Notes: generated by a model not told the origin, from the letters alone. Numbered from the stretch's first letter, positions 44,340 to 57,493 are shown. The stretch is DNA of 64,000 bases from Roseivirga sp. (GCA_965230105.1 CBDDKG010000005.1:188489-252488); one strand, 5' to 3'. A program made the numbers and translations.

Positions 44340-44372
44340 ACAAGACTATATATTTCTCCTGTACCCCACCAT

Positions 44373-44900: not shown

Positions 44901-44901
44901 C

Positions 44902-45699
44902 TTGGATATAGAAAAGTACATATCGTCTGGAATTTTGGAGGCTTATGCCCTCGATACCCTATCTGTTGAAGAGCGGAAAGGAGTGGAGGATATGCTCAAC
45001 CAATATCCTGAGCTAAAAGCTGAATTGGAAGCGATCGAGTTGTCTTTAGAAGCAATAGCTCTTAAAACAGCAGTGGCGCCACCGGCTGGCTTAAAGGATG
45101 CCATACTATCTGGTGTTGAAGAAAGTGCACCCGCCAAAGAAACTAAAGTGGTAGCCATGGAACAGCCATCGGCTACCTGGAAGTATCTGGTAGCCGCTTC
45201 AGTAGCACTGGCTTTGATCAGCGGCTATATGGCTTATGACTACCGTGCCAAGTGGAAGTCTATCAATGAAGCTTATGCGGAGTTGGCGAGTTCCAATAGC
45301 CTGATGGCCGATCAATACAACAAAGTCAACCAAAGGCTGGAAGGTATAGAAAGTGACCTGGCCATTATGAGCAATTCGGAGTTTTTGAGAGTATCGATGG
45401 CAGGAACAGAAAATGCCCTGGAAGCTTCGGCCAGTGTCTTCTGGAACAAGCGCACCGAAGAACTCTTCCTCAATATCCAAAACCTTAAAACCCTGTCCGA
45501 AGACCAGCAGTATCAGCTTTGGGCCATTATAGATGGCAAACCGGTGGATGCCGGAGTCTTTGATTTAGGCACTGAAGGCTTGATCAAAATGAAGAATACT
45601 GCCGCTCAGGCGGTAGCCTTTGCCGTAACCATCGAACCTAAAGGTGGTAGTGAAGCACCTCACCTGGAAACCATGCAGGTGATCGGGAATGTGGGGTAG
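44902..45699 (+). CDS. RskA-like anti-sigma factor
   Basis: SGILEAY.L, one TM helix, coiled coil, QYQLWAI.DGKPVDAG and FAVTIEPKGGSE.P motifs; TTG start. Confidence 0.88.
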   Translation: MDIEKYISSGILEAYALDTLSVEERKGVEDMLNQYPELKAELEAIELSLEAIALKTAVAPPAGLKDAILSGVEESAPAKETKVVAMEQPSATWKYLVAASVALALISGYMAYDYRAKWKSINEAYAELASSNSLMADQYNKVNQRLEGIESDLAIMSNSEFLRVSMAGTENALEASASVFWNKRTEELFLNIQNLKTLSEDQQYQLWAIIDGKPVDAGVFDLGTEGLIKMKNTAAQAVAFAVTIEPKGGSEAPHLETMQVIGNVG

Positions 45700-45711
45700 T
45701 TTCTCTATTCT

Positions 45712-45754
45712 AGCGCTCACCTGTCTGCCGATAGGCAGGCTTGTAGTGAGTGCT
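45712..45754. repeat. Nested REP-like palindrome
   Basis: agcgctcac...gtgagtgct encloses cctgtctgccgataggcagg (cctgtct/aggcagg stem). Confidence 0.5.
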
Positions 45755-45779
45755 GACCTTAACTATTTAATATAAGATA

Positions 45780-45802
45780 GGTCCGCACTGCAAGTGCGAA
45801 CC
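45780..45802. repeat. Short REP-like hairpin
   Basis: ggtccgcact-gca-agtgcgaacc; the single mismatch is G.U on the - strand. Confidence 0.45.
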
Positions 45803-45842
45803 AGAAGTACTCATATCCAGATACTCATATCTCAAGTCTCAA

Positions 45843-45906
45843 ACTACTACCACTAGTGATTCTGATACTAGTACTAGTGACTCACTTATACCAGCACTAG
45901 TGATTT
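45843..45906 (+). promoter_or_regulatory. Array of three ACTAGTGA direct repeats upstream of the heme-receptor promoter
   Basis: ACTAGTGA at 45852, 45873 and 45896; palindrome ACTAGTACTAGT at 45867-45878. Confidence 0.65.
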
Positions 45907-45934
45907 CCGGTGGAGCAACCGCCCTCTATATTTG
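45904..45934 (+). promoter_or_regulatory. Sigma70 promoter P1 of the TBDR-hmuY-DUF6607 operon
   Basis: TTT-N20-TATATTTG. Confidence 0.7.
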
Positions 45935-45939
45935 CATCT

Positions 45940-45958
45940 ATTAAGAATGATTCTAAAT
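45940..45958. promoter_or_regulatory. Fur-like 19-bp palindromic operator
   Basis: ATTAAGAATGATTCTAAAT, between the -7 box and the ATG. Confidence 0.72.
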
Positions 45959-45960
45959 AA

Positions 45961-48228
45961 ATGCAAAGAGCATCATTTATCGCGCTTCTGGTTATCTCAA
46001 CAAGCTTTCAGGCCTTGGGTCAGCGCCTCCTTTTCACCAATGCTGAGACAAAGGAACCAGTATCTGGTGCTGTCATCAAGCTGGAATCAATTGCTGGAAA
46101 AGGTAGTGCTGTAGCCGTCACCAATGCCAGGGGTGAGGTGACAATTGATCTCGCTTTTCCACTGATCATTCAGACCAGTCATCTGGCATATGAAGCCTAT
46201 CAAGACACCCTATATAACAGTGATGTCAATGCATTTCAGCTGGTGCCCAGAATCACGGAGTTAGATCAGGTGGTGGTCACAGGTCAGTTTAATCCTCAAG
46301 CGGCCAGTAATTCCATTTTCAGAGTACAAACAATCGATTCAAAAGAGTTTAAACAGCGTGGTGCTTTCAACCTACAAGAGGTACTCAGCAACCAGTTAAA
46401 TATTCGGGTGAGTCAGGATTTAGCCATTGGCAGTTCATCTATTAGTCTGCAGGGTATTTCAAGTCAGAATGTAAAGATCCTGGTAGACGGTATTCCACTA
46501 GTTAACCGCTCGGGTAATGGCAATGGTGCAGACCTGAGTCAGATTAATCTCCAGAATATTGAGCGAATAGAAATTGTGGAAGGCCCTATGGCCGTGAATT
46601 TTGGGGCTAACGCATTGGCTGGTGTGATTAACCTCATCACCAAAAAGGACTTCAATAGTAGAACAGAAGTTAGACTCGATATTCAGTCAGAGACGGCTGG
46701 CAATGAGTTGGGTCTGGATGCAGGTCGGCATGTGCAATCCATAGGAGTTAACCACAGGTTGAATGAGAAGTGGTCATTTCTAGTGAGCGCTCAGCATAAT
46801 GATTTCTTAGGCTTTCAGGGGAACGCTGGTGTCAGGCAGAATGAATGGAATCCGAAAAGACAGTGGTTAGGGAACGGCTTGCTGAGGTATCAGTCTGATA
46901 ACCATAGTCTACATTATCGCTTTGATGCACTCAATGAGCTTATTCAAGACTTTGGAGCAGCTCAAAACAACTTCTTGCCTTCAGGAGAAAATCAGCCCTT
47001 TGCTATTGATGAAACCTATGATTCTAGAAGGTATTCTCATCAGCTGCAGGCGGAAGGAAGATTACCCTTCCTAAATCGATATACTGCCTTTGCTTCCTTT
47101 TCTGATTTCGAAAGAGATAAGAGACGCTTTACCAAGAATATTGTCACGGGTGCCGAACAGTTGACAAACGGAGATGGTGATCAAGACCTAAGTACCTATG
47201 GCGTATGGGAGTTTGGTGGAACAGGCTTTTTAAGTCCTGCTAATGCCTTTGACTTACAAGTAGGCTACCAAATTTCACTGGAGCGTGTAGGAGGGGGGAG
47301 AATCCTGGATGCGGAACAGGGCATCGAAGAGTATGCAGTTTATACCTCTGCAGAATGGAGACCGGCTGCAAAGGCCACTTTTAGACCCGGTCTTCGTTTT
47401 ACCACGAATAGTGTCTTTGGCAGCCAGCTGATTCCATCACTGCAGTTTAAGTACCATCAAAGCGAGGCCTTACAATTCAGAATTTCTTATGGAGGCGGCT
47501 TTAGAGCGCCATCGGTACGGGAGCTTTACTTTGAGTTTGTCGATTCCAATCATAGGATTTTCGGAAACCCTGACCTGACGCCTGAGACCTCGAATCATTT
47601 CAGCCTGAATACTATTTCTAAGTATAAGATTGCATCTACCAATGTGGATGTAGATCTGAATCTTTTCTACAATAGTATTAGTGATCAGATCTCTTTGGGG
47701 CAGAATGTCAATGATATTACCAGCACCACCTACCTGAATATTGAGCGTTTTAAAACCTTGGGGCTCACCCTGACCCAGAAGGCTCAGTTCGGGGCGCTGT
47801 CTGCGAATATTGGCTTTTCTTATATCGGCCGTTTCAATAGAATTTCAGATAATGAGGAGGGTCTGGACGACTTCTTTTACTCTCCAGAGTTCAATGCTAA
47901 TCTTTCTTATCGCTTTTCAAAAAGCCGTACCTCCATCAATGCCTTTTACAAGTACACCGGCCGACTGCAGTCCTATTTCACAGATACAAACAGTCAGAAT
48001 GAGCAGGTGATCAGCATTGGAGAAATCAGTGATTTCCACTGGTTGGATGCTACCATAATTCAGCCTTTGAGTAATGCTTTCGAGCTGACCCTGGGTGCAC
48101 AAAATATTTTAAATGTAATCAATATCAATAATTCAGGTGTGGGTGGAGGAGCCCACTCCGGAGGACCTTCTGTACCCATATCCTATGGAAGATCTTATTT
48201 CTTAAAACTAAGCTATAATCTAAAATAA
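45961..48228 (+). CDS. TonB-dependent receptor, HmuR/FepA-CirA-like (probable heme receptor)
   Basis: CarboxypepD-like N-terminus, LDQVVVTGQ TonB box, ILVDGIP, IERIEIVEGP and RAPS.RELY motifs; adjacent to hmuY. Confidence 0.88.
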   Translation: MQRASFIALLVISTSFQALGQRLLFTNAETKEPVSGAVIKLESIAGKGSAVAVTNARGEVTIDLAFPLIIQTSHLAYEAYQDTLYNSDVNAFQLVPRITELDQVVVTGQFNPQAASNSIFRVQTIDSKEFKQRGAFNLQEVLSNQLNIRVSQDLAIGSSSISLQGISSQNVKILVDGIPLVNRSGNGNGADLSQINLQNIERIEIVEGPMAVNFGANALAGVINLITKKDFNSRTEVRLDIQSETAGNELGLDAGRHVQSIGVNHRLNEKWSFLVSAQHNDFLGFQGNAGVRQNEWNPKRQWLGNGLLRYQSDNHSLHYRFDALNELIQDFGAAQNNFLPSGENQPFAIDETYDSRRYSHQLQAEGRLPFLNRYTAFASFSDFERDKRRFTKNIVTGAEQLTNGDGDQDLSTYGVWEFGGTGFLSPANAFDLQVGYQISLERVGGGRILDAEQGIEEYAVYTSAEWRPAAKATFRPGLRFTTNSVFGSQLIPSLQFKYHQSEALQFRISYGGGFRAPSVRELYFEFVDSNHRIFGNPDLTPETSNHFSLNTISKYKIASTNVDVDLNLFYNSISDQISLGQNVNDITSTTYLNIERFKTLGLTLTQKAQFGALSANIGFSYIGRFNRISDNEEGLDDFFYSPEFNANLSYRFSKSRTSINAFYKYTGRLQSYFTDTNSQNEQVISIGEISDFHWLDATIIQPLSNAFELTLGAQNILNVININNSGVGGGAHSGGPSVPISYGRSYFLKLSYNLK

Positions 48229-48229
48229 C

Positions 48230-49315
48230 ATGATACTCAAAAAAGTAACCTATTACCTGGCTGTCATTGGCCTGTTTGCCATGACCGCCTGTTCTAACGA
48301 TGATACCCCGACTATCGATCCGCCAGCTACAGGAGCCATTATTGATCCTGCCGTGGGTGGTCCAACCCAGCCGAATCAGGTTTTCATTGACTTGTCAAAG
48401 GAGAGTCAGTCTTCTGTAAGCAGAAACTCATGGGATCTCGGTTTTCATACGGGTACTGATTTCAGAGTTATTCTGAATAATTCGGCCAGTACTTTGGCCA
48501 GATCCATTGACAAAAACGATTTGAATGCCATCACTGCTGCAGATACTGCTGGTTTTGGTGCACAACTTAATATTGATGCCATCTTTGGAGCCCTATTTGG
48601 TCCACCACCAGCATGGTTATTCAGTGCTGCAAGCTGGTCTGATGACCCTTCAGGTGACTTAACCAAGACCGCTATTGCTGAAGTATCAGCTACGGATGCT
48701 GATAATCAAGTATATATCATCAACAGAGGAAAGAACCCTGATGGTTCTCCAAGAGGTTGGATGAAGATCCGTACCCTGAGAAACTCAAATGGCTATACCC
48801 TGCAGTATGCCGAAATTGGTGCGACAAGTTTCCAGGAACTGAATATCACGAAAAACAATGATGTTGACTTTGTTCCGGTAAGTTTCGACAATGGTATTAT
48901 CACTTCAATTCCTGAAAAGAATGATTGGGATTTTGTCTTTACCATTTTCACAAACCTCTTACCGATAAGTCAGGACGTTTCCATCCCTTACGCCATTAGA
49001 GATTACATCTTAATCAATGCCAATAGAGTAGAGGTGGCCATGGTAGAGATCGCGGCTGGCACTAGCTACGAAGACTTTGCCATTGGTGCCGTTGGTGCTT
49101 TGAATTTTTCCACTGAAGTAGCCGCCATTGGTAGTGGCTGGAGAAATGTGGCACAACCAGGTTCTAACGTTGAAACCGGCATTAAAGATGACATCTTCTA
49201 TGTGGTGAAGGATACTGACGAGAACTATTACAAACTACGCTTTACTCGCCTTGTGGATGCGCAACCCGGAGACAGAGGAAACCCTCAGTTTCAGTATGAA
49301 CTGCTAGTCCAATAA
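48230..49315 (+). CDS. hmuY: HmuY family lipoprotein
   Basis: Lipobox MTAC followed by acidic SNDD; NQVFIDLS, WDLGF, WDFVF and YYKLRF motifs. Confidence 0.82.
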   Translation: MILKKVTYYLAVIGLFAMTACSNDDTPTIDPPATGAIIDPAVGGPTQPNQVFIDLSKESQSSVSRNSWDLGFHTGTDFRVILNNSASTLARSIDKNDLNAITAADTAGFGAQLNIDAIFGALFGPPPAWLFSAASWSDDPSGDLTKTAIAEVSATDADNQVYIINRGKNPDGSPRGWMKIRTLRNSNGYTLQYAEIGATSFQELNITKNNDVDFVPVSFDNGIITSIPEKNDWDFVFTIFTNLLPISQDVSIPYAIRDYILINANRVEVAMVEIAAGTSYEDFAIGAVGALNFSTEVAAIGSGWRNVAQPGSNVETGIKDDIFYVVKDTDENYYKLRFTRLVDAQPGDRGNPQFQYELLVQ

Positions 49316-49349
49316 GACTGAAATCACGAACTATTATAACAGACTGAAT

Positions 49350-50261
49350 ATGAAACAATTATTAATTATCGCCCTATGTGTCATCAGCATGAGTACATGG
49401 GCACAAAGCAAAAAGAAGCAGGATGTCGCTGCGATAAAAGAAATGTGTGGGTGCTACAAGGTAAGGTTCAATTTTGCCGAAACCTTCGCACCAGACAGGC
49501 GCTATGAGTTCCATAAAAACTATAAATCAAAAGGCCTTGAGTGGGTTCAGTTGGTCGAGGAGGATAAAAACAAGGTCTCTTTGCAGCACCTGCTGATTGT
49601 GGCTCCTAAGACGATCGTGAAGCATTGGAGACAGGACTGGATCTATCAAAACACTGACTTTTATACCTATGACAAGGATAACAGTTGGAAGTATAAAGCG
49701 CTTTCAAAGAAAGACGTCAAAGGCCAGTGGTCTCAGAAAGTTTATCAGGTAGATGGTAGTCTTCGTTACGAAGGTTCGTCAAGCTGGGTACATGTAGATG
49801 GTCGACACTATTGGGAGAATACTGCTGATTCTCCTCTACCAAGACGTGAGTATTCCAAACGGACGGATTACAACTTAATGGTAAGAACTAACCGTCAGGA
49901 GTTGACACCAGAAGGTTGGGTACATGAGCAGGATAATGATAAGGTCATCAGGTCTGAGAAAGGTGACAAGTTATTAGCCCAAGAGAAAGGCTGGAATACC
50001 TATACAAAAGTAGATGACAGTGAGTGTAAAGATGCTCACGAATGGTGGGCGAAAAATAAGCAATACTGGTCTGATGTTAGACAGGTGTGGGATGAAGTTT
50101 TTGCATCAAAATCAACTTTGACCTTTAAGCGAAAAGTGGACGAGAAGGTTATGTACGAAAGAATTTTTGCCCTGGGAGATAAGGTCTTGGAAGCTGATGC
50201 TTATGACAGCGAAGCCATTCAGAAAGAGTTGAATGATATTATAAACGCATATCGTGATTAG
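49350..50261 (+). CDS. DUF6607-like exported protein
   Basis: Signal peptide; MCGCYKV.F.FAETF, KHWRQDW, WSQKVYQVD, PLPRREY and GWVHEQDN motifs. Confidence 0.72.
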   Translation: MKQLLIIALCVISMSTWAQSKKKQDVAAIKEMCGCYKVRFNFAETFAPDRRYEFHKNYKSKGLEWVQLVEEDKNKVSLQHLLIVAPKTIVKHWRQDWIYQNTDFYTYDKDNSWKYKALSKKDVKGQWSQKVYQVDGSLRYEGSSSWVHVDGRHYWENTADSPLPRREYSKRTDYNLMVRTNRQELTPEGWVHEQDNDKVIRSEKGDKLLAQEKGWNTYTKVDDSECKDAHEWWAKNKQYWSDVRQVWDEVFASKSTLTFKRKVDEKVMYERIFALGDKVLEADAYDSEAIQKELNDIINAYRD

Positions 50262-50285
50262 TTAAATTGTTTCATATCATGAGTT

Positions 50286-50319
50286 GAAGAGGGGACCCAC
50301 TTCGTGGTGTTCCTTCTTC
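50286..50319 (+). terminator. Hairpin terminating the heme operon
   Basis: gaagaggggacccacttcgtggtgttccttcttc, followed by tatt. Confidence 0.55.
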
Positions 50320-50411
50320 TATTAGCTTATGATAGGACTGTCTACGATTAAAAACAGAATAACGGCTGAAGGAACAAGAACAACGTTAGCAGTTAAATTT
50401 TCTTTTAACCG

Positions 50412-50439
50412 AAAGGGGCAACTATTCAGTCGCCCCTTT
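50412..50439 (-). terminator. Hairpin terminating the flavodoxin operon
   Basis: aaaggggcaact-attc-agtcgccccttt; the one mismatch is G.U on the - strand. Confidence 0.6.
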
Positions 50440-50499
50440 GAAATTTAAAACCACTTCTGTTAGAAACATATCTGGTTTAACACTACGTATTGTGTGAGA

Positions 50500-51036
50500 C
50501 TAATTGGCCATCACTGAATCGCTAATAATGGGAAACTCCTCTTGGATCTGTTCCAGCCAGGCATCGACACGGTCCACTGTCAGGTCTCTTTGGTTGTCTT
50601 CATCGACAGCTAAACCCATAAACCAGCCAGGCTCAAACTCTGCAACAGACTCTAGGTAGTCATAACCTTCGGTAGGCCAGACACCAATAATCTCTCCTCC
50701 ATTTTGGGCGATGACATTGCCAAGAATACCAACGCCATCAATAAAGAACTCGCCATAGCCTATCTGGTCCCCCAGGCCAAATAGAGCTACTTTTTTGCCA
50801 CTAAAATCGATGGTTTGGAAGGTCTCAAAAAAGCTCTCCCAGTCACTTTGCAAATCGCCATCAAACCAGGTAGACAGGCCAAGAATTAGTTTATCATACT
50901 GATCAAAATCCGACTTCTTCACCTTGTAAACGTCATAAACGTCTAGCATTTCCTCTCCTAATTTTTTGATGATAAGTTCAGATACATATTCAGTAGAGCC
51001 CGTATCTGAGCCATAAAACAAACCAATTTTTTCCAT
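50500..51036 (-). CDS. fldA: Long-chain flavodoxin
   Basis: IGLFYGSDTGSTE, LGLSTW..GDLQSDW, ALFGLGDQ.GY..FF.D and GL.VDEDNQ motifs. Confidence 0.95.
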   Translation of the reverse strand: MEKIGLFYGSDTGSTEYVSELIIKKLGEEMLDVYDVYKVKKSDFDQYDKLILGLSTWFDGDLQSDWESFFETFQTIDFSGKKVALFGLGDQIGYGEFFIDGVGILGNVIAQNGGEIIGVWPTEGYDYLESVAEFEPGWFMGLAVDEDNQRDLTVDRVDAWLEQIQEEFPIISDSVMAN

Positions 51037-51039
51037 GTA

Positions 51040-51390
51040 TTATTTTCTGTTTCCTGTACTGTCTTTTTGTGTTGGCAAAGCCAATAATCTACTTTCTATT
51101 ATCAGCTGAGTTTCGATGAGCAATGATTCCAATTGATTTAACTGTTCTTCTGAAAGCACGAAGTGAATGTTAAGACGCTCTATTTGGACGAGTGCCTTCT
51201 TGTTTAACAAGGTGTTGAACCACTGAAAACTTTGTTGTTGAGTTGTTATAAAGTCTTTGAAGTAAGCGATGCCAAGAGGACTAAGTTCAAGACTCATATA
51301 CTCGGACTTCACCAAAAATGAATCTCCCACATCACTGACAGCGATGCTCCCAAAAGGATTTTCATTAATGACGTGTCCAATTCTTGGCAT
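51040..51390 (-). CDS. Divergent, Cys-free DUF6686-like paralog
   Basis: Same length and the same beta-beta-beta-alpha x2 pattern as the two upstream paralogs; shares the C-terminal helix pattern (LIETQLII vs LEEAMLML). Confidence 0.5.
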   Translation of the reverse strand: MPRIGHVINENPFGSIAVSDVGDSFLVKSEYMSLELSPLGIAYFKDFITTQQQSFQWFNTLLNKKALVQIERLNIHFVLSEEQLNQLESLLIETQLIIESRLLALPTQKDSTGNRK

Positions 51391-51582
51391 TTACTTACTT
51401 TTTCCTTTGAGCCTTATCTTTTCGTTTAGGTAGGGGCACTGAATTTTGGCAATGCCCTCTAGTTCAGCATCTGTTAATGAAGTGTTGCCTGCAATAACCT
51501 CATTGATGACCCTGTCAAAATCTATATTGAGAATCGATTGACCACGATTCGAATTTGTGCCTTGAATAGATCCTTTATCCAT
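51391..51582 (-). CDS. Small (63 aa) hypothetical protein with a QCPYL motif
   Basis: ATG start; its stop abuts the next gene's ATG; fills the operon gap. Confidence 0.6.
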   Translation of the reverse strand: MDKGSIQGTNSNRGQSILNIDFDRVINEVIAGNTSLTDAELEGIAKIQCPYLNEKIRLKGKSK

Positions 51583-51631
51583 CTTCCTATATGATTTAGT
51601 ATTTAGTTTGATCCATCAAGGACTTAGTTTC

Positions 51632-51955
51632 TTAGCTAATAAGTGTTTTGTTAATCTGATCCATCAGCATTGCCTGCTCGATTTCACTTATGATGTATTG
51701 CGTTTCTTCCTGGGTGAAACCCATACCATGACCGTCAAATTTTGAATTACTGATTACAGCTTTCAGGCCTTGTGGATGCCTTGCAGTGTAGTGCTGAATG
51801 GTGAGCGATTTCAGTATCTTCAAGAATGCTCTTAGTTCTCGCCTCGTAAAGGTCATGAAGAGGTTCTTATAATTCACATTGTAGTGGTTACAACACTTAC
51901 ACCTATAAATCTGGATGTCTTCCGACTCATGCAGTATGATTATTTTGTGTGTCAT
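51632..51955 (-). CDS. DUF6686-like protein
   Basis: CKCC..Y.V.YKN motif; 4-nt overlap with the upstream paralog. Confidence 0.7.
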   Translation of the reverse strand: MTHKIIILHESEDIQIYRCKCCNHYNVNYKNLFMTFTRRELRAFLKILKSLTIQHYTARHPQGLKAVISNSKFDGHGMGFTQEETQYIISEIEQAMLMDQINKTLIS

Positions 51956-52284
51956 TCTTTTATTTCTAGAGATTCGTGCACTTGTAACATGAGCATGGCC
52001 TCTTCCAAAACCGTAACGAGTTCTCCAAACTCTTCTAGGTTAAAACAAAATTGTATGTCAGGATGGCAAGTTTCCAGTACCGTATAGTCCTGACCATTTG
52101 GAAACCTGGTGGCGTTTTTAAAGAACTCCGAACTTGTAACTCCCTGATAAAAATTGTTGAACTCCTCAATTTCAAATCCTACAAGTATGTTTTTATAGTA
52201 TAGGCCTACGCGCTTACAACACTTGCATAAGGAAATATTTAAGTGAGGGCTATCTACTAAGATTGTTGGACTACATTGACTCAT
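51952..52284 (-). CDS. DUF6686-like protein
   Basis: CKCCKRVGLYYKN and IQFCFNLEEF..L...LEEA motifs. Confidence 0.72.
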   Translation of the reverse strand: MSQCSPTILVDSPHLNISLCKCCKRVGLYYKNILVGFEIEEFNNFYQGVTSSEFFKNATRFPNGQDYTVLETCHPDIQFCFNLEEFGELVTVLEEAMLMLQVHESLEIKE

Positions 52285-52297
52285 AGTATCTGGTTTT

Positions 52298-52325
52298 AAA
52301 ACTCGCCCTCCGAAGAGAGCGAGTT
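52298..52325 (-). terminator. Intrinsic terminator inside the leader
   Basis: Minus strand aactcgctctc-ttcg-gagggcgagtt-tt. Confidence 0.7.
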
Positions 52326-52494
52326 ATTGACTGATTATATGAAGAGTATTCAATTACGTAGGAGTCACCCTTCTGATGACTCCTGCAGTAGAGTGTATCC
52401 ATCACTTACATTTTCAATTCTGTGATTTAGTGATGCATTTCCTCCTTAGTGATCTCGATCGAGGTATTTCCACTGCAACTTCTCCACTATTATT

Positions 52495-52513
52495 ATTTAG
52501 ACTAATTCTAAAC
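52495..52513. promoter_or_regulatory. Fur-like 19-bp operator
   Basis: ATTTAGACTAATTCTAAAC, just downstream of the -7 box. Confidence 0.72.
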
Positions 52514-52520
52514 AATGACA

Positions 52521-52551
52521 CAAATGTATACTCGAAGTATGACTCGGACAA
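52521..52551 (-). promoter_or_regulatory. Sigma70 promoter P2 of the leader-DUF6686-flavodoxin operon
   Basis: Minus strand TTG-N20-TACATTTG. Confidence 0.75.
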
Positions 52552-52590
52552 TCGCTAGTTGTAGTAGTATTGCTTACTACTAATAGTGAT
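52551..52590. promoter_or_regulatory. Upstream motif of P2 (ACTACTACAACTAGCGATT plus a TAGTAGTA-N5-TACTACTA inverted repeat)
   Basis: 17/19 identical to 45843-45861; perfect 8-bp inverted repeat at 52562-52582. Confidence 0.55.
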
Positions 52591-52629
52591 TTCGAAGGGA
52601 GAATGGAATAGCTTCGGAAGGCACTTGGA

Positions 52630-54834
52630 CTAGTAGCAGTCGGTCTTAATCTGACCACACATTTTCAGGTGATTCAGGCTGAGTCCGGAACCTTTTTTGA
52701 GGTGCTCAGCAAGCACCTTCTCAACTGCCTGTTGCATGCTGAGTCCACCACAAATCATAATGACATGTCCCTGGCTGAGGGCTGTGGTAATCCACCTTAA
52801 CTCTTTGCTGATGGCATCCTGAACATATTGTTTCTCATCGCCTTCTCTTGAGAAGGCTGTGATGAGCTTATTCAACTTTCCAGTGGTAACGGCTCTGTCT
52901 AATTGTTCTTGGTAGAGTTGATAAGAAGCTGTATTCCGCCCTCCCCAAAACAGTGAGATATGCTGTTTTAGTGGGCTATCATTGATCATGCCGAGAAAAG
53001 GAGCAATGCCTGTTCCATTCGCAATCATAATAACCCCCGGTGCTTCTTTAGGTAGGTGAAATGCTGGATTGGTCTTCAGATTACCCAATACCTTATTGCC
53101 AATATTTGATTCACTTAAATAGGACGAGCATATGCCCATATCATGCTTTCTGATGCTGAGCGTAATCGTTGATGCTTCGTTATCCACAGACATGGAATAC
53201 AGGCGCTCGCGGCTTTCCCCTGGAGGTATTACAGATAATAGGTCTCCCGACTGGTATGCTTTCAGTTTGCGTTTTGAAGACTTTAAAGTCAGAAGAAACG
53301 TTTGATCTGATGAGTTAGGAGAATCACATTTTTCTGTGACCAAGAATGGAAGTTGTTTCCTTTTTGGAATGGCCAGATCCTGTTCATCAATCGAGATTTT
53401 CTGGCCCGTTTTCGTTCCTAAGGCTTGAACCCAGTGCATGAACTCGTCTTTGGACTCATTGTCCACCTTGTGCAATGGTACAAGCTGAGTAGCCTCTGTT
53501 CCCTGGCTTAACTGAGCATTGGACTCAATAGCAAACTGGCAAAAGTCAGGATAGGCCGTACTCCCAAAGCCTAAAACTGCATATTGGAAGGGTTGTTGTT
53601 GCTTTGTGTTTCGAACTTTATGAATAAACTTTTTGGCATTTTCAGGCGCTTCCCCCACACCATAGGTGGAGGTCAAGACGAGTAATTGCTCCATATTCTT
53701 AAAGGACTCATATTCGTCCATGCCGGTTAGGTGTACTTTGTGTTGAAGCTTGAGCAAACTCTTTTGCAAAGCCCTGGCAAAACGCATGGTACTGCCCTGT
53801 TCGGAACCTACCAGAATGATAATTTCGCTATCATCTTTGCTGTATGGATTTATGATTTTACTCTTATCTCTTTTCAGGTAAATGGCAAAACCACTATAGA
53901 TAAAGAATAGAATACCGATTCCGGTAAGTCCCAATACAGACGCCCAAATGATAGTGCCTTCTCCCGTATGAAGGTTAAAGCTTAACTGATATGCTAGCTT
54001 TACCAAAGGGTAGTCAAGCTCACTGATCACTGTCCCATTAAACTGATTGACCAGGAGTTCCTTATTCTTAAGTTTGACTTCGTAGTATTCCTCAGGGAAT
54101 TCGGCAAATGGGAAGTTGAGTTCTCTTAGATCTTCAAGTGTGTAGGTATTGAATGGCTCAAAGGAGGATAGGGGTTGTTTCGGTTCTTCTGTGAGTCGGG
54201 TCTCATCTATTGAGTGATCGAGTGGTGGTATGACAACCAAATTGAACCGCTCCATAAATAGATAGGTGCCAGTGGCGCCAAGCACTATGATGGATAGGAT
54301 CAGCCAGCGGCTGAAGCGTGTGTGGTAATCCTTGTAGAAGTCGTTTTTAATGACTTTCGAAAAGTAATTTTTGATACCACCCTGCTTCTTAAGTATCAGA
54401 AAGAAACCGCTAAGTGCCATAAACAAGAGTATGACAGAGACCAAGCCTATGAGAAACCTTCCGATCTGACCCAGAAATAGAGATCGGTGCAAACTGCGGC
54501 TAAATTCAAAGATTCTAGGGGTTCGGATAAGCTCACCAATTTTCAGACCTGTGAATGGATCGACATAAAAAGGGGTGTCTGAATCAATGGTTTGGATAGA
54601 AACAAAGCCGTTCTTGTCACGAGAAATGTTAAGAACTTCTTCATGCTGAGCTGTAATGTTGGTGATGGCCTCACTCAATAGTAGGTCATCTGCTTTTTTT
54701 ACCTGATAGGGATGTGTCTTTTGATAGATAGGCTCAAAAGACAAGATAGCGCCTGTAATAGACGCTATCAGAAGAAATATCGTACTGATTATAGCCAGCC
54801 AGAGGTGTGTGACCCGCCACAATGAGAGTGACAT
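52630..54834 (-). CDS. PepSY-TM + flavodoxin + FAD/NAD(P)H (FNR) fusion oxidoreductase
   Basis: WRVTHLWL, SLHRSL and LHTGEG membrane His; GSEQGST and STYGVGEAP flavodoxin motifs; RLYSM, GICS, GTGIAPF, YVQD and ICGG FNR motifs. Confidence 0.88.
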   Translation of the reverse strand: MSLSLWRVTHLWLAIISTIFLLIASITGAILSFEPIYQKTHPYQVKKADDLLLSEAITNITAQHEEVLNISRDKNGFVSIQTIDSDTPFYVDPFTGLKIGELIRTPRIFEFSRSLHRSLFLGQIGRFLIGLVSVILLFMALSGFFLILKKQGGIKNYFSKVIKNDFYKDYHTRFSRWLILSIIVLGATGTYLFMERFNLVVIPPLDHSIDETRLTEEPKQPLSSFEPFNTYTLEDLRELNFPFAEFPEEYYEVKLKNKELLVNQFNGTVISELDYPLVKLAYQLSFNLHTGEGTIIWASVLGLTGIGILFFIYSGFAIYLKRDKSKIINPYSKDDSEIIILVGSEQGSTMRFARALQKSLLKLQHKVHLTGMDEYESFKNMEQLLVLTSTYGVGEAPENAKKFIHKVRNTKQQQPFQYAVLGFGSTAYPDFCQFAIESNAQLSQGTEATQLVPLHKVDNESKDEFMHWVQALGTKTGQKISIDEQDLAIPKRKQLPFLVTEKCDSPNSSDQTFLLTLKSSKRKLKAYQSGDLLSVIPPGESRERLYSMSVDNEASTITLSIRKHDMGICSSYLSESNIGNKVLGNLKTNPAFHLPKEAPGVIMIANGTGIAPFLGMINDSPLKQHISLFWGGRNTASYQLYQEQLDRAVTTGKLNKLITAFSREGDEKQYVQDAISKELRWITTALSQGHVIMICGGLSMQQAVEKVLAEHLKKGSGLSLNHLKMCGQIKTDCY

Positions 54835-54838
54835 ACAG

Positions 54839-55339
54839 TTATTTACTAGCCGATTTTTGAATTAACTGCACATAGCGGATGTAGCCATTGCCTTTTAATC
54901 GCTGACCCGCCATGCTATCTGTCAAGTCTATCTCTAGATCCTTTTCGTGATAATCCTGATCTTCTACCGCAGTCTCAAACCTTAATTTGTAACCGGCATT
55001 AACCATTGAAGCATCAAGGCTTACTGTAGCGACTTTTCTTCCCCCACTAGAGATAGAGGCGCCAGCCATACCGTCAATTTCTACTTTATTGCTCGGATAG
55101 AATTCATACCATGCCGGTAGATCTTCGTACCAATCCTCATCATCGCCATGTACAGACACGGTCTTCACATATTCTCCTTCAGTATTCAATACTGAAACCA
55201 CAACATAGGCACCTTCGCCACCATAGTTGGTCAGCTGGATGAGGCATTTGTATGTGACAGCTTCGTTGTTAATCGATTTAAATCCAAAGCTGATGCTTGC
55301 TGCCAATAAGAGAACAGCGATTAATAATTTGTTTTTCAT
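54839..55339 (-). CDS. DUF2271 family exported protein
   Basis: Signal peptide; NYGGEGAYVV.S, WY.DL..W, IDGMAGASI and RFETAVED motifs. Confidence 0.8.
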   Translation of the reverse strand: MKNKLLIAVLLLAASISFGFKSINNEAVTYKCLIQLTNYGGEGAYVVVSVLNTEGEYVKTVSVHGDDEDWYEDLPAWYEFYPSNKVEIDGMAGASISSGGRKVATVSLDASMVNAGYKLRFETAVEDQDYHEKDLEIDLTDSMAGQRLKGNGYIRYVQLIQKSASK

Positions 55340-56856
55340 TATTTCTGAGTTTTCAAAAATTCAATATTGGTGATGTTGGCCCCTAAAATTTCGTTTTCCA
55401 TGGCCAGGTCATATGCAGACTCTTCGAATTCAGTTCTGACGTTTTTATCGGCTCCAGAAGCGATTAAGAATTTGAGTAAATCGCTGGTTTCTGATAGCAT
55501 GGCTGCATGGTGTAAGATCGTTTGGCCATTCGCATCTTTTGCGTTGATGTCAATGCCCAGAGCAATAAGCCTTTTCAGAAATTCAATGTTCTGTCGTGAA
55601 ATGGCCACATGCAGCAGCGTCTGCCCATCAAATTGTGTTGTTTTGGGATTGTAACCTTTGGACATTAAGAACTTCATCTTTTGATCGAAGAGATCAAGAT
55701 TATTTCTCGTGCCATCTACGACATGGTAACCTAGGTCATAAACTCCATCTGCTTTGACTTCTATTTGAGCTCCGGCATCGGCAAGAAATTCGACTACGTC
55801 CATATTATTGTATTTGATGGCTCGCATAAAGCTGGAAAAGCCTTCTTTATTCTTGCTATTGATGTCCTTAGTCTTATTTGCCAAGAACTTTACTTTTTCC
55901 AGTCCACCTCTGGCTGAGGCATTGATCAGGGGAGTGTTACCATCTTTATCTACCTGGTTGACATCAGCGCCCTTATCGATGAAGTATTGGAGGGTTTTGA
56001 CATCATTGGAGCGGAATGCAAGGTTGTGTAGCGCATTTCTGCCTGACTTAGTCGATTTCGCAGGATCAAGCCCCAGACTTTCAAAGTATTTGAATAATAA
56101 GATTGGAGATGCTTCATTTTCACCAAAGTTTCTGTTAGTCGCAAAGTAGAAAGCGTTCTCCCCCGTCTTTGGGTTAGCCTTGAAGTCGACTTTGTAATCA
56201 TCAACAAGCTTTTGTAATAACTCTTTATTCCGAGTGGAAGCCGCATAGTGAAAGAGGCCATTACCATTATCATCCGTCTCATGGATGTCTACACCTAAGC
56301 CCATGAAGTAATCAAGCATTTCGGTGTTTTCGAGTCGACCTGCGAAAGTCATTAAGACATTTCTACCATTTCGCGGATTCTTCGCTGCAATGTCTAAGCC
56401 ATTGGCCATAGACAGTTCGTATACCTTTTTGTTAGCTTGACCTGAACGTGCTGCAAACATCATGGCATTGTTGCCGCCATCATCGACTAGCTCAATTTTG
56501 ATTCCACTTGACAGTAAATATTCCATCACTTCAGTATTGCCCCTTAAGGCAGCCCAGTGGAGATAAGTTCGGGCATCATGGGTGATGGTATTGACTTCGC
56601 CTACTTGCTTAACCAAATACTTGATTACATCTGTAGCATTATTCTCAAGTATGGCATAGGTAGTAGGGTCAAACATTGAAGAAGTAAACTCAGTAGGTGA
56701 GTGGCCTTCCTTTACTTTTTGTTTCACCTCTTCTAAAGAGGGTTGTAATCTCCAAAAACCTCTGTCTAGAAATTTATTCGACTGTTGTGCAGTGGCGGTG
56801 AACTGGATAAGAACACAGCAAATCAATAAAATCCTGCTAAGTAAACTGACTCTCAT
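55339..56856 (-). CDS. Exported ankyrin-repeat protein
   Basis: Signal peptide; many T.LH.A..G...V..LL..GA.IN..D..G repeats. Confidence 0.9.
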   Translation of the reverse strand: MRVSLLSRILLICCVLIQFTATAQQSNKFLDRGFWRLQPSLEEVKQKVKEGHSPTEFTSSMFDPTTYAILENNATDVIKYLVKQVGEVNTITHDARTYLHWAALRGNTEVMEYLLSSGIKIELVDDGGNNAMMFAARSGQANKKVYELSMANGLDIAAKNPRNGRNVLMTFAGRLENTEMLDYFMGLGVDIHETDDNGNGLFHYAASTRNKELLQKLVDDYKVDFKANPKTGENAFYFATNRNFGENEASPILLFKYFESLGLDPAKSTKSGRNALHNLAFRSNDVKTLQYFIDKGADVNQVDKDGNTPLINASARGGLEKVKFLANKTKDINSKNKEGFSSFMRAIKYNNMDVVEFLADAGAQIEVKADGVYDLGYHVVDGTRNNLDLFDQKMKFLMSKGYNPKTTQFDGQTLLHVAISRQNIEFLKRLIALGIDINAKDANGQTILHHAAMLSETSDLLKFLIASGADKNVRTEFEESAYDLAMENEILGANITNIEFLKTQK

Positions 56857-56881
56857 TCCGATCGGATTAGTTATTGTTGTT

Positions 56882-56900
56882 ATTTAGACTAATTCCAAAC
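56882..56900. promoter_or_regulatory. Fur-like 19-bp operator
   Basis: ATTTAGACTAATTCCAAAC, 18/19 identical to 52495-52513. Confidence 0.72.
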
Positions 56901-56930
56901 AAAGGTAAAGCGCAAAGGTTCAAGGATCAA
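56900..56930 (-). promoter_or_regulatory. Sigma70 promoter P3 of the ankyrin-DUF2271-PepSY operon
   Basis: Minus strand TTG-N20-TACCTTTG. Confidence 0.75.
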
Positions 56931-56951
56931 CTGTCAATGCGGCTAATTCGA

Positions 56952-56967
56952 TCACTAGTACTAGTAT
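56952..56967 (-). promoter_or_regulatory. Upstream 16-mer ATACTAGTACTAGTGA
   Basis: Exact match to 45865-45880, in the same orientation relative to transcription. Confidence 0.65.
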
Positions 56968-57025
56968 TTTTTGCAATTGGTCTGACCCTATTTTTGGGTA
57001 GAAAGGTGTGAGGTCTTTAGAAACA

Positions 57026-57490
57026 TCAGCGCAACTTTTTTAATGCCCTCTTAAGTTGTTTGGCATTGACAAAAGCATCCTGTTGATGGAGAATTTCATA
57101 TTTGGCATTGAGAAAAACAAGGGTGGGATAGGCCACAACTCCGTCTTTGGCCCCAAGTTGCTGTGCCAGCTCATGAGTACCCGTATTGGTACCATTCGGT
57201 TTGTATTTAAAAGTTTGACCCAGAAAGGTGACATCTGTTTTGGATTCTCCGTCAAAGCTTACGAAGTGAAAGTCTTTTGTAAGCAGAGACTTGATCTCCT
57301 CATTTTGAAAAGTGGTCTGCTTCATATTCTCACAGAAGTTACACCAGGGGGCATGCAAGAAAACGACCACAGGCCTTGGGTCTGTCTTTTGTACAGCTTC
57401 TAGCTTCTCAAAACTTAGAGCATAGTCTTGTGCATGAGCTACGCTCAATCCCAGTGTTATATTCAATATAAAAGCTAAAGCAATTTTCAT
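57026..57490 (-). CDS. Exported thioredoxin-fold protein
   Basis: Signal peptide; APWCNFC active site and YPT cis-Pro loop. Confidence 0.85.
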   Translation of the reverse strand: MKIALAFILNITLGLSVAHAQDYALSFEKLEAVQKTDPRPVVVFLHAPWCNFCENMKQTTFQNEEIKSLLTKDFHFVSFDGESKTDVTFLGQTFKYKPNGTNTGTHELAQQLGAKDGVVAYPTLVFLNAKYEILHQQDAFVNAKQLKRALKKLR

Positions 57491-57493
57491 TAC

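What the first reader, a model, noticed from the sequence alone, without database searches (positions are those of the whole stretch)
45961..56856. Candidate undescribed heme/iron-release pathway: HmuR-HmuY-DUF6607 co-regulated with ankyrin-DUF2271-PepSY reductase, without HmuSTUV
Seen: both operons share the Fur-like box and the exact 16-mer. No CobN-like HmuS, HmuTUV, heme oxygenase or ABC importer is in the window. Established: the Porphyromonas hmu locus is hmuYRSTUV, and PepSY-TM proteins such as FoxB are heme-b membrane reductases for ferric chelates. Inference: NAD(P)H-FNR-flavodoxin-PepSY hemes could pass electrons to periplasmic DUF2271, with the ankyrin and DUF6607 proteins handling imported heme or chelate so that Fe(II) is released in the periplasm.
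Basis: inference. Interest (0 to 1): 0.78.

Follow-up and report, generated by a model that had tools for sequence, protein, structure and literature searches.

The report
Haem uptake genes tied to periplasmic reductase
A marine Roseivirga bacterium that lacks four of the known families of haem-iron-releasing enzymes keeps its haem-uptake genes under the same iron switch as a membrane reductase; in related bacteria the haem-binding protein is fused to that reductase's ankyrin partner, which points to an undescribed way of freeing iron from haem outside the cytoplasm.

Summary
Both operons carry a Bacteroidota-type Fur box and share an exact 16-mer. A 98.5%-complete Roseivirga genome has no CobN/HmuS, haem oxygenase, HemS/ChuS or HugZ-type gene, and its one true FecCD importer sits in a B12 locus.

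The parts are not new. DUF6607 is the RhuH haem-binding protein of Riemerella (PDB 8XJC, about 47% identity, TM-score 0.84-0.91), with the His ligand and five propionate contacts conserved. The PepSY/diflavin fusion plus DUF2271 belongs to the "PepSY-like" flavinylated periplasmic reductases described in 2021.

The link between them is new as far as the searched literature shows.
- Five protein clusters are natural DUF6607-ankyrin fusions, each followed by DUF2271 and the PepSY reductase.
- Of 62 DUF6607 loci, 25 carry DUF2271 plus the PepSY reductase (24 also the ankyrin).
- Fifteen instead carry an unrelated flavinylated FMN_bind protein directly downstream.
- DUF2271 and DUF6607 co-occur in genomes: 11 of 15 against 8 of 286.

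The most likely mechanism is inferred, not shown. NAD(P)H electrons cross the membrane to a periplasmic flavoprotein that acts on RhuH-bound haem, and Fe(II) enters through FeoAB.

Verdict: a new variant of known kinds, and moderately to highly interesting.

The parts
45845..45905 (+). Three direct copies of the upstream repeat TAC(T/C)A(G/C)(T/C)ACTAGTGA(T/C)T, spaced 21 and 23 bp; the middle copy contains the exact 16-mer
   Evidence: family D1, pair I3; 10 matches against 1.08 expected
45942..45960 (+). Fur box TAAGAATGATTCTAAATAA, ending at the ATG of the receptor gene, just after a TAtaTTTG -7 element
45961..48228 (+). TonB-dependent receptor (RhuR/HmuR-like), with FRAP (514-517), His531 and NPDL (536-539)
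   Evidence: orthologues lie beside DUF6607 in 55 of 62 loci
48230..49315 (+). HmuY-family surface lipoprotein (long type, lipobox LFAMTAC)
   Evidence: PF14064, 84 bits; synteny
49350..50261 (+). RhuH-family (DUF6607) haem-binding beta-barrel protein with a Sec signal peptide; predicted haem ligand His92 and contacts R139, Y140, R166, R179, Q194
52630..54834 (-). Inner-membrane PepSY_TM domain (4 TM helices; invariant His10, His116, His171, His289) fused to a cytoplasmic CPR/CysJ-type diflavin NAD(P)H reductase
54839..55339 (-). Periplasmic DUF2271 protein, a class shown to be an ApbE flavinylation substrate; the motif here is DGMAGAS, against ID(A/G)ITGAT in most orthologues
55339..56856 (-). 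Exported 505-aa ankyrin-repeat protein, the orthologue of the ankyrin half of the DUF6607-ankyrin fusion proteins
56880..56898 (-). Fur box TTGGAATTAGTCTAAATAA, directly after a TAccTTTG -7 element, 23 nt before the ankyrin ATG
56952..56967 (-). Second copy of the exact 16-mer, in gene orientation upstream of the ankyrin operon promoter
   Evidence: (I3)
52493..52511 (-). Third Fur box, the best scoring in the genome, heading the leader / DUF6686 / flavodoxin transcription unit between the two operons
50500..52284 (-). Associated iron-starvation unit: three DUF6686 small proteins (51952-52284, 51632-51955, 51040-51390) and a long-chain flavodoxin FldA (50500-51036)
   Evidence: DUF6686 genes recur beside DUF6607 (L016 by Pfam, L028 by tblastn); weak DUF6686-like p121 genes follow PepSY genes in L045, L054, L064

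Best explanation
This is one Fur-repressed haem-iron acquisition system encoded in two operons.

Operon 1 is the outer-membrane and haem-binding arm. It has a RhuR/HmuR-like TonB receptor, an HmuY-family surface lipoprotein and a RhuH-family (DUF6607) protein that holds haem through one histidine.

Operon 2 is an electron-supply arm. A CPR-like diflavin reductase takes electrons from cytoplasmic NAD(P)H. They pass through two b-haems in its fused PepSY membrane domain to a periplasmic, covalently flavinylated DUF2271 protein. An exported ankyrin protein acts as the docking partner of RhuH.

The proposed acceptor is ferric haem bound to RhuH in the periplasm. Reduction, possibly followed by O2-dependent breakdown or dechelation, frees Fe(II), which enters through the co-regulated FeoAB.

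Shown here: the gene identities, the Fur boxes, conservation of the haem-binding residues, the four His and the flavinylation motif, the fusion and synteny link, and the absence of HmuS, HO, HemS and HugZ.

Inferred: that RhuH works in the periplasm, that its haem is the electron acceptor, and that iron is released there.

My odds: identities 0.9; functional coupling of the two arms 0.75; haem on RhuH as acceptor with periplasmic iron release 0.4.
For: Identity of DUF6607:
- The family profile matches PDB 8XJC at E 7.7e-116, and the window protein at E 3e-89.
- The AF2 model (pLDDT 92.6) matches 8XJC with TM-score 0.84-0.91; the next fold hit is the haem-binding nitrobindin barrel.
- RhuH His96, R143, Y144, R170, R183 and Q198 correspond to H92, R139, Y140, R166, R179 and Q194. 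Five are invariant and Q194 nearly invariant in 52 homologues.

Coupling of the two arms:
- Five clusters of 779-785-aa DUF6607-ankyrin fusions exist.
- The ankyrin half of one (P0147) aligns end to end with the mature window ankyrin, E 4e-98.
- The three fusions inspected keep the haem-site residues.
- The fusions looked up are followed by DUF2271 and the PepSY reductase.
- Of 62 DUF6607 loci with full flanks, 25 carry DUF2271 + PepSY reductase (24 with the ankyrin).
- Fifteen carry instead an unrelated FMN_bind protein directly downstream. All 17 such proteins aligned (including two from shorter loci) carry a G-A-T flavinylation-type motif, SGAT in 13.
- DUF2271 is found in 11 of 19 DUF6607-positive genomes and in 4 of 282 others. 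Fisher p is 2.4e-12, and 2.9e-7 at genus level.

Electron path:
- Four His are invariant in 31 orthologues, as in the two bis-His haem sites of FoxB.
- The C-terminal half matches CPR, CysJ and NOS reductases.
- Three ApbE genes lie elsewhere in the genome.

Need for such a route:
- The genome has no CobN, HO, HemS or DUF2470 gene, and no haem-type ABC importer.
- feoAB carries the same Fur box.

Precedents:
- Haem dechelation by Bacteroides HmuS needs the membrane fraction and NADH and acts on ferrous haem.
- For Flavobacterium, the haem oxygenase and inner-membrane step are stated to be unknown.
Against: - RhuH was found experimentally in culture supernatant and outer-membrane vesicles, not in whole cells, and was interpreted as a secreted haemophore.
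- The characterised R. anatipestifer rhuH has no flavin module beside it.
- Twenty-two of 62 loci have neither module nearby, and in several Flavobacterium-like genomes DUF2271 lies far from DUF6607.
- The window DUF2271 has AGAS rather than the canonical [S/T]GA[S/T], and no ApbE gene lies in the cluster.
- PepSY-like systems are otherwise linked to ferric-chelate reduction.
- The fold of the natural fusion gave pTM 0.63, so domain docking is not supported either way.
- Core-only HutZ-type oxygenases, IsdG/ABM, ChuW/HutW and Dyp/EfeB were not searched for in the genome.
Confidence: 0.5

Rival explanations
1. The two modules are independent members of one iron island. RhuR-RhuA-RhuH takes up haem, with RhuH acting outside the cell as published. 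The ankyrin-DUF2271-PepSY reductase is a general periplasmic ferric-chelate or siderophore reductase, like other PepSY-like systems. They share only Fur control and location.
For: - PepSY-like + DUF2271 systems are proposed or shown to serve ferric iron reduction in Caulobacter, Vibrio and Pseudomonas.
- RhuH has been found in supernatant and OMVs.
- Riemerella rhuH stands without a flavin module.
- Two more TonB receptors lie just beyond the reductase operon.
Against: - It does not explain five independent DUF6607-ankyrin fusion clusters with intact haem-site residues.
- It does not explain DUF6607 as first gene of the reductase operon in many Flavobacteriia.
- It does not explain replacement of the module by a different flavinylated protein directly after DUF6607.
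- It does not explain the near-restriction of DUF2271 to DUF6607-bearing genera in the phylum sample.
Confidence: 0.2
2. The redox module only reduces ferric to ferrous haem on RhuH. This loosens a 3e-11 M complex so that intact haem passes to an unidentified inner-membrane importer. Iron is then released in the cytoplasm by an enzyme not searched for here (core-only HutZ, IsdG-type, ChuW), or the haem is used as a cofactor.
For: - RhuH has very high affinity that depends on His-iron coordination, so a release step is needed.
- Several haem-degrading families were not tested in this genome.
- The fusion and synteny evidence fits this reading as well as iron release.
Against: - No haem-type ABC importer is present. 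The only strong FecCD system lies in a B12 locus.
- No candidate transporter is conserved in the 62 loci.
- feoAB is in the same regulon.
Confidence: 0.2
3. The reductase arm protects the envelope against haem or iron-driven oxidative damage, for example by keeping periplasmic haem or a haem enzyme reduced. The ankyrin would act as a chaperone for a haem protein, as reported for AnkB and catalase KatB in Pseudomonas aeruginosa (recalled from memory).
For: - The ankyrin protein is exported.
- A flavodoxin and a thioredoxin-like gene lie nearby.
Against: - Fur repression means the system is switched on by iron starvation, not by excess haem.
- No catalase or peroxidase is conserved in the loci.
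Confidence: 0.05

Closest known systems
RhuR-RhuA-RhuH haem uptake system of Riemerella anatipestifer (Wang et al. 2025, PMC11967795; PDB 8XJC)
   Same: It has the same three protein families (TonB receptor, HmuY-family protein, DUF6607/RhuH) and the same type of Fur box. RhuH's His96 and its five propionate-contact residues are conserved.
   Different: Here rhuH is the last gene of the receptor operon rather than divergent from it, and the HmuY protein is the long 361-aa type. The system is tied to an ankyrin-DUF2271-PepSY reductase operon that Riemerella lacks at its rhuH locus. The host is a free-living marine Roseivirga, not a pathogen.
PepSY-like flavinylated extracytosolic electron-transfer systems (Meheust et al. 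2021, PMC8238504), e.g. Caulobacter CCNA_03155-03159
   Same: A PepSY_TM protein lies beside DUF2271. The NAD-binding fusion is of the kind seen in 1077 PepSY-like genes in that study. Fur regulation and a proposed role in iron assimilation are shared.
   Different: There is no ApbE and no DUF4198 in the cluster. An exported ankyrin protein and a haem-binding RhuH protein take the place of DUF4198. The reductase part is a full flavodoxin + FAD + NAD diflavin unit. No link to haem is described in that work.
FoxB / FpvG / VciB / XusC PepSY_TM ferric-siderophore reductases
   Same: The membrane domain belongs to PF03929 and has four conserved His suited to two b-haems.
   Different: Those proteins have no fused cytoplasmic reductase and act on ferric siderophores. 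No sequence match to FoxB reached E 0.01 in the PDB search.
hmuYRSTUV of Porphyromonas and Bacteroides, with the HmuS dechelatase
   Same: An HmuY-family protein is paired with a TonB receptor. Iron removal from haem there also needs membrane-derived NADH electrons and ferrous haem.
   Different: HmuS is absent from the genome. HmuTUV was not searched for: no ABC ATPase lies in the window and the genome's only strong FecCD permease lies in a B12 locus. The organism is aerobic.
HfpR-HfpY of Flavobacterium psychrophilum (Zhu et al. 2022, PMC9331221)
   Same: A TonB receptor and an HmuY-like protein occur without hmuSTUV, inside an iron-responsive region that also encodes transmembrane electron-transfer proteins. 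The downstream fate of haem is stated to be unknown.
   Different: A DoxX gene lies between hfpR and hfpY. In my sample DoxX was never found in loci that carry the PepSY module (0 of 25). That paper does not mention DUF6607, ankyrin or PepSY.
NADPH-cytochrome P450 reductase feeding haem oxygenase-1 in eukaryotes
   Same: The cytoplasmic half is the same diflavin reductase family. That family is the natural electron donor for haem degradation (established knowledge).
   Different: Here electrons would have to cross a membrane through b-haems and a covalent flavoprotein. RhuH has a different fold from haem oxygenase, and no catalysis has been shown.

Membership tests
RhuH / DUF6607 haem-binding protein family | Match to PF20311 above the gathering score | tested here: met
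   382.6 bits against a cut-off of 27, covering residues 10-301
RhuH / DUF6607 haem-binding protein family | Sequence and fold similarity to the crystal structure 8XJC | tested here: met
   E 3e-89, about 47% identity; Foldseek TM-score 0.84-0.91, rmsd 2.0-2.5 A
RhuH / DUF6607 haem-binding protein family | Axial His96 and propionate contacts R143, Y144, R170, R183, Q198 | tested here: met
   H92, R139, Y140, R166, R179 and Q194 are aligned with them. Five are invariant and Q194 nearly invariant in alignment A1.
RhuH / DUF6607 haem-binding protein family | High-affinity haem binding, and a requirement for growth on haemin or haemoglobin | not testable with these tools
   Needs purified protein and mutants
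RhuH / DUF6607 haem-binding protein family | Fur-controlled and next to a TonB receptor + HmuY-family pair | tested here: met
   It lies in the same operon behind a Fur box. Fifty-five of 62 family loci have the pair within 6 kb.
PepSY-like flavinylated electron-transfer system (Meheust 2021) | PepSY_TM (PF03929) membrane protein in the cluster | tested here: met
   114.6 bits, residues 9-322
PepSY-like flavinylated electron-transfer system (Meheust 2021) | DUF2271 with the [S/T]GA[S/T] flavinylation motif | tested here: inconclusive
   DUF2271 scores 119 bits. The window motif is A-G-A-S, which keeps the target Ser but has Ala at the first position. 21 of 28 orthologues have TGAT or SGAT; the others read TGAS, TGST or xGET.
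PepSY-like flavinylated electron-transfer system (Meheust 2021) | ApbE flavin transferase encoded in the cluster | tested here: not met
   None lies in the window cluster or in L007-L009. Three ApbE genes lie elsewhere in the genome, none behind a Fur box.
PepSY-like flavinylated electron-transfer system (Meheust 2021) | Cytoplasmic NAD-binding domain fused to PepSY (a subset of the family) | tested here: met
   Flavodoxin_1 + FAD_binding_6 + NAD_binding_1 at residues 340-705; CPR, CysJ and NOS reductase matches
FoxB-type di-haem PepSY_TM reductase | Four conserved His in the membrane helices (two bis-His haem b sites) | tested here: met
   H10, H116, H171 and H289 are invariant in 31 orthologues. 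Haem content itself was not testable.
Porphyromonas-type hmuYRSTUV locus | CobN-like HmuS dechelatase | tested here: not met
   No PF02514 match in the 98.5%-complete genome
Porphyromonas-type hmuYRSTUV locus | HmuY-family protein next to a haem-type TonB receptor | tested here: met
   PF14064 at 84 bits. The receptor has FRAP-His-NPDL, but its TIGR01785 score of 124 is below the cut-off of 317.
Bacteroidota Fur regulon | A 19-bp palindromic box like ATTTAGAATTATTCTAAAT overlapping the promoter | tested here: met
   Three boxes lie in the window, and others precede feoAB and other iron genes. Fur binding itself was not testable.

The most novel reading that the evidence does not exclude
RhuH/DUF6607 is not only, or not mainly, a secreted haemophore. 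It would be the periplasmic site where haem iron is released. Docked by the ankyrin protein to a covalently flavinylated partner (DUF2271 or FMN_bind), its five-coordinate His-ligated haem would receive NAD(P)H-derived electrons passed across the inner membrane, and would be degraded or dechelated there. That would be a third route for freeing iron from haem, beside haem oxygenases and HmuS. It would explain haem use in the many aerobic Bacteroidota that lack both.
Probability: 0.25. Interest if true: 0.85.

Novelty: new variant of a known kind. Interest (0 to 1): 0.66.

Why it matters
How aerobic Bacteroidota get iron out of imported haem is an acknowledged gap. This group includes fish and poultry pathogens as well as abundant marine Flavobacteriia and Cytophagales. 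The Flavobacterium psychrophilum study lists the haem oxygenase and the inner-membrane step as unknown, and the RhuH paper does not identify what handles haem after the outer membrane, describing only the generic ABC-transporter and haem-oxygenase route.

The fusion and operon evidence names four specific genes as candidates for that step: rhuH, the ankyrin gene, DUF2271 and the PepSY-diflavin reductase gene. That makes the question directly testable.

It would also give the PepSY-like flavinylated systems, so far tied to ferric chelates, a defined protein-bound substrate. And it would call for a fresh look at where RhuH acts.

Tried and rejected
- **Anti-correlation with hmuS across 301 Bacteroidota genomes.** It was uninformative. 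Four of 19 DUF6607-positive genomes have a CobN-family gene, against 72 of 282 others. Most of those hits lie in one distant family with two copies each, which I guess to be Mg-chelatases.
- **Haem oxygenase in DUF6607-positive genomes.** It is present in 5 of 18, so it is neither excluded nor required.
- **Folding a natural DUF6607-ankyrin fusion to look for docking.** pTM was 0.63, with weak confidence in the DUF6607 half. No conclusion was possible, and the tool gives no interface measure.
- **Rfam scan of 44000-58000.** No match at E up to 1.
- **HmuY-like protein and DUF2271 against PDB sequences.** No usable match.
- **PepSY fusion against PDB sequences.** Only the reductase half matched; FoxB was not among the hits shown.
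- **ApbE under Fur control.** No box lies near any of the three ApbE genes.
- **A small gene between receptor and HmuY in loci with a 400-bp gap.** There is no ORF on the right strand, so the gaps reflect divergent HmuY N-termini.
- **Supplement of the F. psychrophilum paper, for the content of its 19-kb region.** The locus tags and domain names searched were not found in the text held; a second, broader search failed on a term-length error.
- **Other conserved partners downstream of the FMN_bind variant.** Only housekeeping genes were found.

Full report
**What is there**

The window is C5:188489-252488 of a 4.58-Mb, 98.5%-complete genome. The closest relatives of its proteins are from Roseivirga, order Cytophagales.

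- a TonB-dependent receptor (45961-48228, +)
- an HmuY-family lipoprotein (48230-49315, +)
- a DUF6607 protein (49350-50261, +)
- on the other strand, an exported 505-aa ankyrin protein (55339-56856)
- a DUF2271 protein (54839-55339)
- a 734-aa fusion of a PepSY_TM membrane domain with flavodoxin, FAD and NAD domains (52630-54834)

Between the two operons lies a third unit on the minus strand. It has three DUF6686 small proteins and a long-chain flavodoxin (50500-52284).

An ECF sigma / anti-sigma pair lies upstream of the receptor gene. A thioredoxin-like gene and two more TonB receptors lie beyond the ankyrin gene.

**Check of the observation**

The exact 16-mer is real, at 45865-45880 (+) and 56952-56967 (-). 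It belongs to a repeat family, TACTAnTAnTAGTGA, with three tandem copies before the receptor gene. A further copy lies at 52575.
- Counting up to 3 mismatches, there are ten matches in the window against 1.08 expected. None of 100 shuffles reaches ten.

The Fur-like box is a 19-bp palindromic site at three promoters in the window: 45942, 52493 and 56880.
- That is 3 matches against 0.03 expected.
- In each case it follows a TAnnTTTG -7 element.
- It is nearly identical to the Riemerella anatipestifer Fur box ATTTAGAATTATTCTAAAT, for which Fur binding to promoter fragments containing the box was shown by EMSA.
- In the rest of the genome the same box precedes feoAB, another TonB receptor and an imelysin-like operon.
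- Only about a dozen strong sites exist genome-wide, and three of them are here.

The stated absences hold for the whole genome.
- There is no CobN/HmuS, no haem oxygenase PF01126, no HemS/ChuS and no DUF2470 of HugZ-type oxygenases.
- The one strong FecCD permease lies with a BtuB-like receptor and open frames that read by eye as cobU, cobT and cobS; they were not scanned against Pfam. It is most likely a B12 importer.
- No ORF in the window has both Walker A and LSGGQ motifs.

**What DUF6607 is**

The family is large: 939 representative clusters at 50% identity. No paper in the library uses the name DUF6607. But a profile of 52 homologues hits one PDB entry at E 7.7e-116. This is 8XJC, the "haemophore" RhuH of R. 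anatipestifer.

The evidence that the window protein belongs to this family:
- It aligns with 8XJC at E 3e-89.
- Its AlphaFold model (pLDDT 92.6, pTM 0.87) superposes on 8XJC with TM-score 0.84-0.91. The next hit is the haem-binding nitrobindin barrel.
- The paper on RhuH (PMC11967795) shows a Kd for haem of 3.4e-11 M that depends on His96. It models propionate contacts to R143, Y144, R170, R183 and Q198.
- These residues correspond to H92, R139, Y140, R166, R179 and Q194 in the window protein. Five are invariant and Q194 nearly invariant in the family alignment.

In Riemerella, rhuH is divergent from rhuR-rhuA, a TonB receptor and an HmuY-like protein. They share a Fur box. Its deletion impairs growth on haemoglobin or haemin.

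So operon 1 of the window is a RhuR-RhuA-RhuH type haem uptake system, not an uncharacterised one.

**What the reductase operon is**

Meheust et al. 2021 (PMC8238504) showed that DUF2271 is flavinylated by ApbE at an [S/T]GA[S/T] motif. They described thousands of "PepSY-like" clusters and proposed them as periplasmic iron reductases:
- 2833 contain DUF2271.
- 1077 PepSY-like genes carry an NAD-binding domain.
- Some are Fur-repressed.

A Caulobacter study supports a role for such a system under iron limitation.

In the window and 30 orthologues:
- The PepSY domain has four invariant His: H10, H116, H171 and H289. This matches the two bis-His haem b sites of FoxB.
- The cytoplasmic half matches CPR, CysJ and NOS diflavin reductases.
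- With four membrane helices, both ends lie in the cytoplasm. This fits NAD(P)H as donor (read from the sequence).
- Most DUF2271 orthologues carry ID(A/G)ITGAT. The window copy has DGMAGAS, which keeps the target Ser.
- No ApbE lies in the cluster, but three are encoded elsewhere.

**The link between the two, which is the new part**

*Fusions.* Among the DUF6607 representatives is a 779-aa protein, P0147. Its N-terminal 286 residues are DUF6607 and the rest is ankyrin repeats.
- Residues 307-779 align co-linearly with the mature window ankyrin, residues 23-502, at 36% identity and E 4e-98.
- Five such fusion clusters, 52-54% identical to P0147, come from different assemblies.
- The three fusions inspected keep the haem-site residues and a single N-terminal signal peptide.
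- In the three contigs examined (two of them carrying the same fusion protein), the fusion gene is followed by DUF2271 and the PepSY/flavodoxin/NAD reductase.

*Synteny.* Eighty DUF6607 loci from Cytophagales, Flavobacteriales, Sphingobacteriales, Saprospiraceae and Chitinophagales were compared with the window proteins by tblastn. Sixty-two of them have full flanks:

| Feature near DUF6607 | Loci (of 62) |
|---|---|
| TonB receptor + HmuY-family gene within 6 kb | 55 |
| DUF2271 + PepSY reductase | 25 (24 also with the ankyrin) |
| Membrane-anchored FMN_bind protein directly downstream | 15 |
| Neither module nearby | 22 |

- The commonest Flavobacteriia layout is HmuY <- receptor, then divergently DUF6607 -> ankyrin -> DUF2271 -> PepSY reductase.
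- All 17 FMN_bind proteins aligned, including two from shorter loci, carry a G-A-T flavinylation-type motif, the canonical SGAT in 13.
- So two unrelated folds of covalently flavinylated periplasmic protein occupy the same position after rhuH. This suggests that a periplasmic flavin electron donor is what matters.

*Co-occurrence in genomes.* In an even sample of 301 Bacteroidota genomes:
- DUF6607 occurs in 19.
- Strong DUF2271 matches occur in 15.
- Eleven genomes have both. Fisher p is 2.4e-12. At genus level, six of the seven DUF2271-bearing genera also contain a DUF6607 genome, p 2.9e-7.
- This holds even where the genes are not adjacent.

I found no paper that connects RhuH/DUF6607 with ankyrin or PepSY systems. 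The F. psychrophilum study only remarks that hfpR-hfpY lie in a 19-kb iron-responsive region with transmembrane electron-transfer genes. It lists the haem oxygenase and the inner-membrane step as unidentified.

**Mechanism**

The best-supported reading is one haem-iron system.
1. The receptor and the HmuY lipoprotein bring haem across the outer membrane.
2. RhuH binds it.
3. The diflavin reductase passes NAD(P)H electrons through the PepSY b-haems to flavinylated DUF2271.
4. The ankyrin protein docks RhuH to this module.
5. RhuH-bound haem is reduced, and iron is released as Fe(II) for FeoAB.

Several points make a periplasmic role plausible (inference):
- RhuH has only a Sec signal peptide, with no lipobox and no type IX secretion C-terminal domain.
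- It is fused to a protein that works with an inner-membrane reductase.
- OMV lumen contains periplasm, so the published OMV data are compatible with this.
- RhuH is modelled with a single axial His. By my reading, that resembles haem enzymes more than bis-ligated haemophores.
- CPR-type reductases are the natural donors to haem oxygenase (established knowledge; PDB entries).
- Bacteroides HmuS needs membranes, NADH and ferrous haem to dechelate.

Evidence against, or limiting:
- RhuH was not detected in whole cells.
- Riemerella's rhuH has no flavin module next to it.
- About a third of loci have no such module nearby.
- The window DUF2271 motif is non-canonical.
- PepSY-like systems elsewhere act on ferric chelates.
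- The fold of a natural fusion gave pTM 0.63, so docking is unproven.
- Core-only HutZ-type oxygenases, IsdG, ChuW and Dyp were not searched for.

**Rivals**

- (a) The modules are independent and share only Fur control. This fails to explain the fusions and the non-homologous replacement.
- (b) Reduction only releases haem from RhuH for import by an unknown transporter.
- (c) The module protects the envelope. This fits poorly with induction by iron starvation.

**Comparison and novelty**

The parts are members of known families: RhuH, HmuY, TonB receptor, PepSY-like/DUF2271 and CPR-like reductase. The locus is not a Porphyromonas-type hmu locus, because HmuS is absent.

What differs from every description I could find is the combination. 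A haem-binding RhuH protein and an exported ankyrin protein serve as the periplasmic partners of a PepSY-like flavinylated reductase. This is documented here by fusion, operon structure and co-occurrence.

I rate it a new variant of a known kind. It bears on an open question: how aerobic Bacteroidota without HmuS or haem oxygenase free iron from haem.

Interest is 0.66. The most novel reading, RhuH as the site of periplasmic flavin-driven haem iron release, has about 0.25 probability. It would deserve 0.85 if true.

Noticed in passing
window 52285-52515 (-): The best-scoring Fur box in the genome heads a leader of about 200 nt. The leader ends in a GC-rich hairpin with a UUCG loop and a short T run, just before the first DUF6686 gene. 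It could be an iron-regulated small RNA or an attenuator. Rfam gives no match.
   Followed up: partly
window 51040-52284 (-); L016:11012-11308; L028:849-1133; L029:11461-11826: DUF6686 small Cys-rich proteins without signal peptides recur directly after DUF6607 (L016 confirmed by Pfam, L028 by tblastn). Weak DUF6686-like p121 genes follow the PepSY reductase in L045, L054 and L064. They may belong to the same system.
   Followed up: partly
window 45845-45905, 52552-52589, 56952-56967; genome C11:3549: The ACTAGTGA-containing repeat lies roughly 40-95 bp upstream of the Fur box at the three window promoters and at the imelysin-like operon on C11. No regulator for it was identified. An ECF sigma / anti-sigma pair lies directly upstream (44457-45699).
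   Followed up: partly
L029, L034, L036, L048, L049, L052, L055, L062, L065, L069, L071, L073, L074, L077, L081, L084, L087 (about 10.9-11.45 kb in each full locus): In these loci DUF6607 is followed by a membrane-anchored FMN_bind protein with an (S/A/V)GAT flavinylation-type motif (SGAT in 13 of 17) instead of ankyrin-DUF2271-PepSY. In L048, L052, L065, L071, L073 and L087 a 165-aa, roughly four-helix membrane protein with an HxH motif in helix 2 comes next. It could be the membrane electron carrier of this variant.
   Followed up: partly
L013, L014, L020, L021, L027, L029, L030, L033, L041, L049 and others: A DoxX membrane protein accompanies the receptor-HmuY pair in 14 of 37 loci without the PepSY module and in 0 of 25 loci with it. 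This suggests that DoxX and the PepSY reductase are alternatives.
   Followed up: partly
genomes G134, G110, G170, G174, G198, G214, G234, G246: DUF6607 and DUF2271 are absent from the sampled genome of the same genus and from seven genomes of the same family. The module is therefore patchily distributed and possibly mobile between lineages.
   Followed up: no
window 57026-59776 (-): A TonB receptor with a CarboxypepD_reg domain is followed by an exported thioredoxin-like protein. A second such receptor lies at 59939-62185. No Fur box was found in front of them in the window scan.
   Followed up: no
genome C2:86515 (-): A strong Fur box lies about 160 nt before an operon that looks like alternative complex III: a 421-aa protein, then 1033-aa and 453-aa proteins. 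Iron control of a respiratory complex would be worth a look.
   Followed up: no
genome C11:144426-144893 (+): A second, short PepSY_TM match (198-aa open frame) lies elsewhere in the genome. It was not examined.
   Followed up: no
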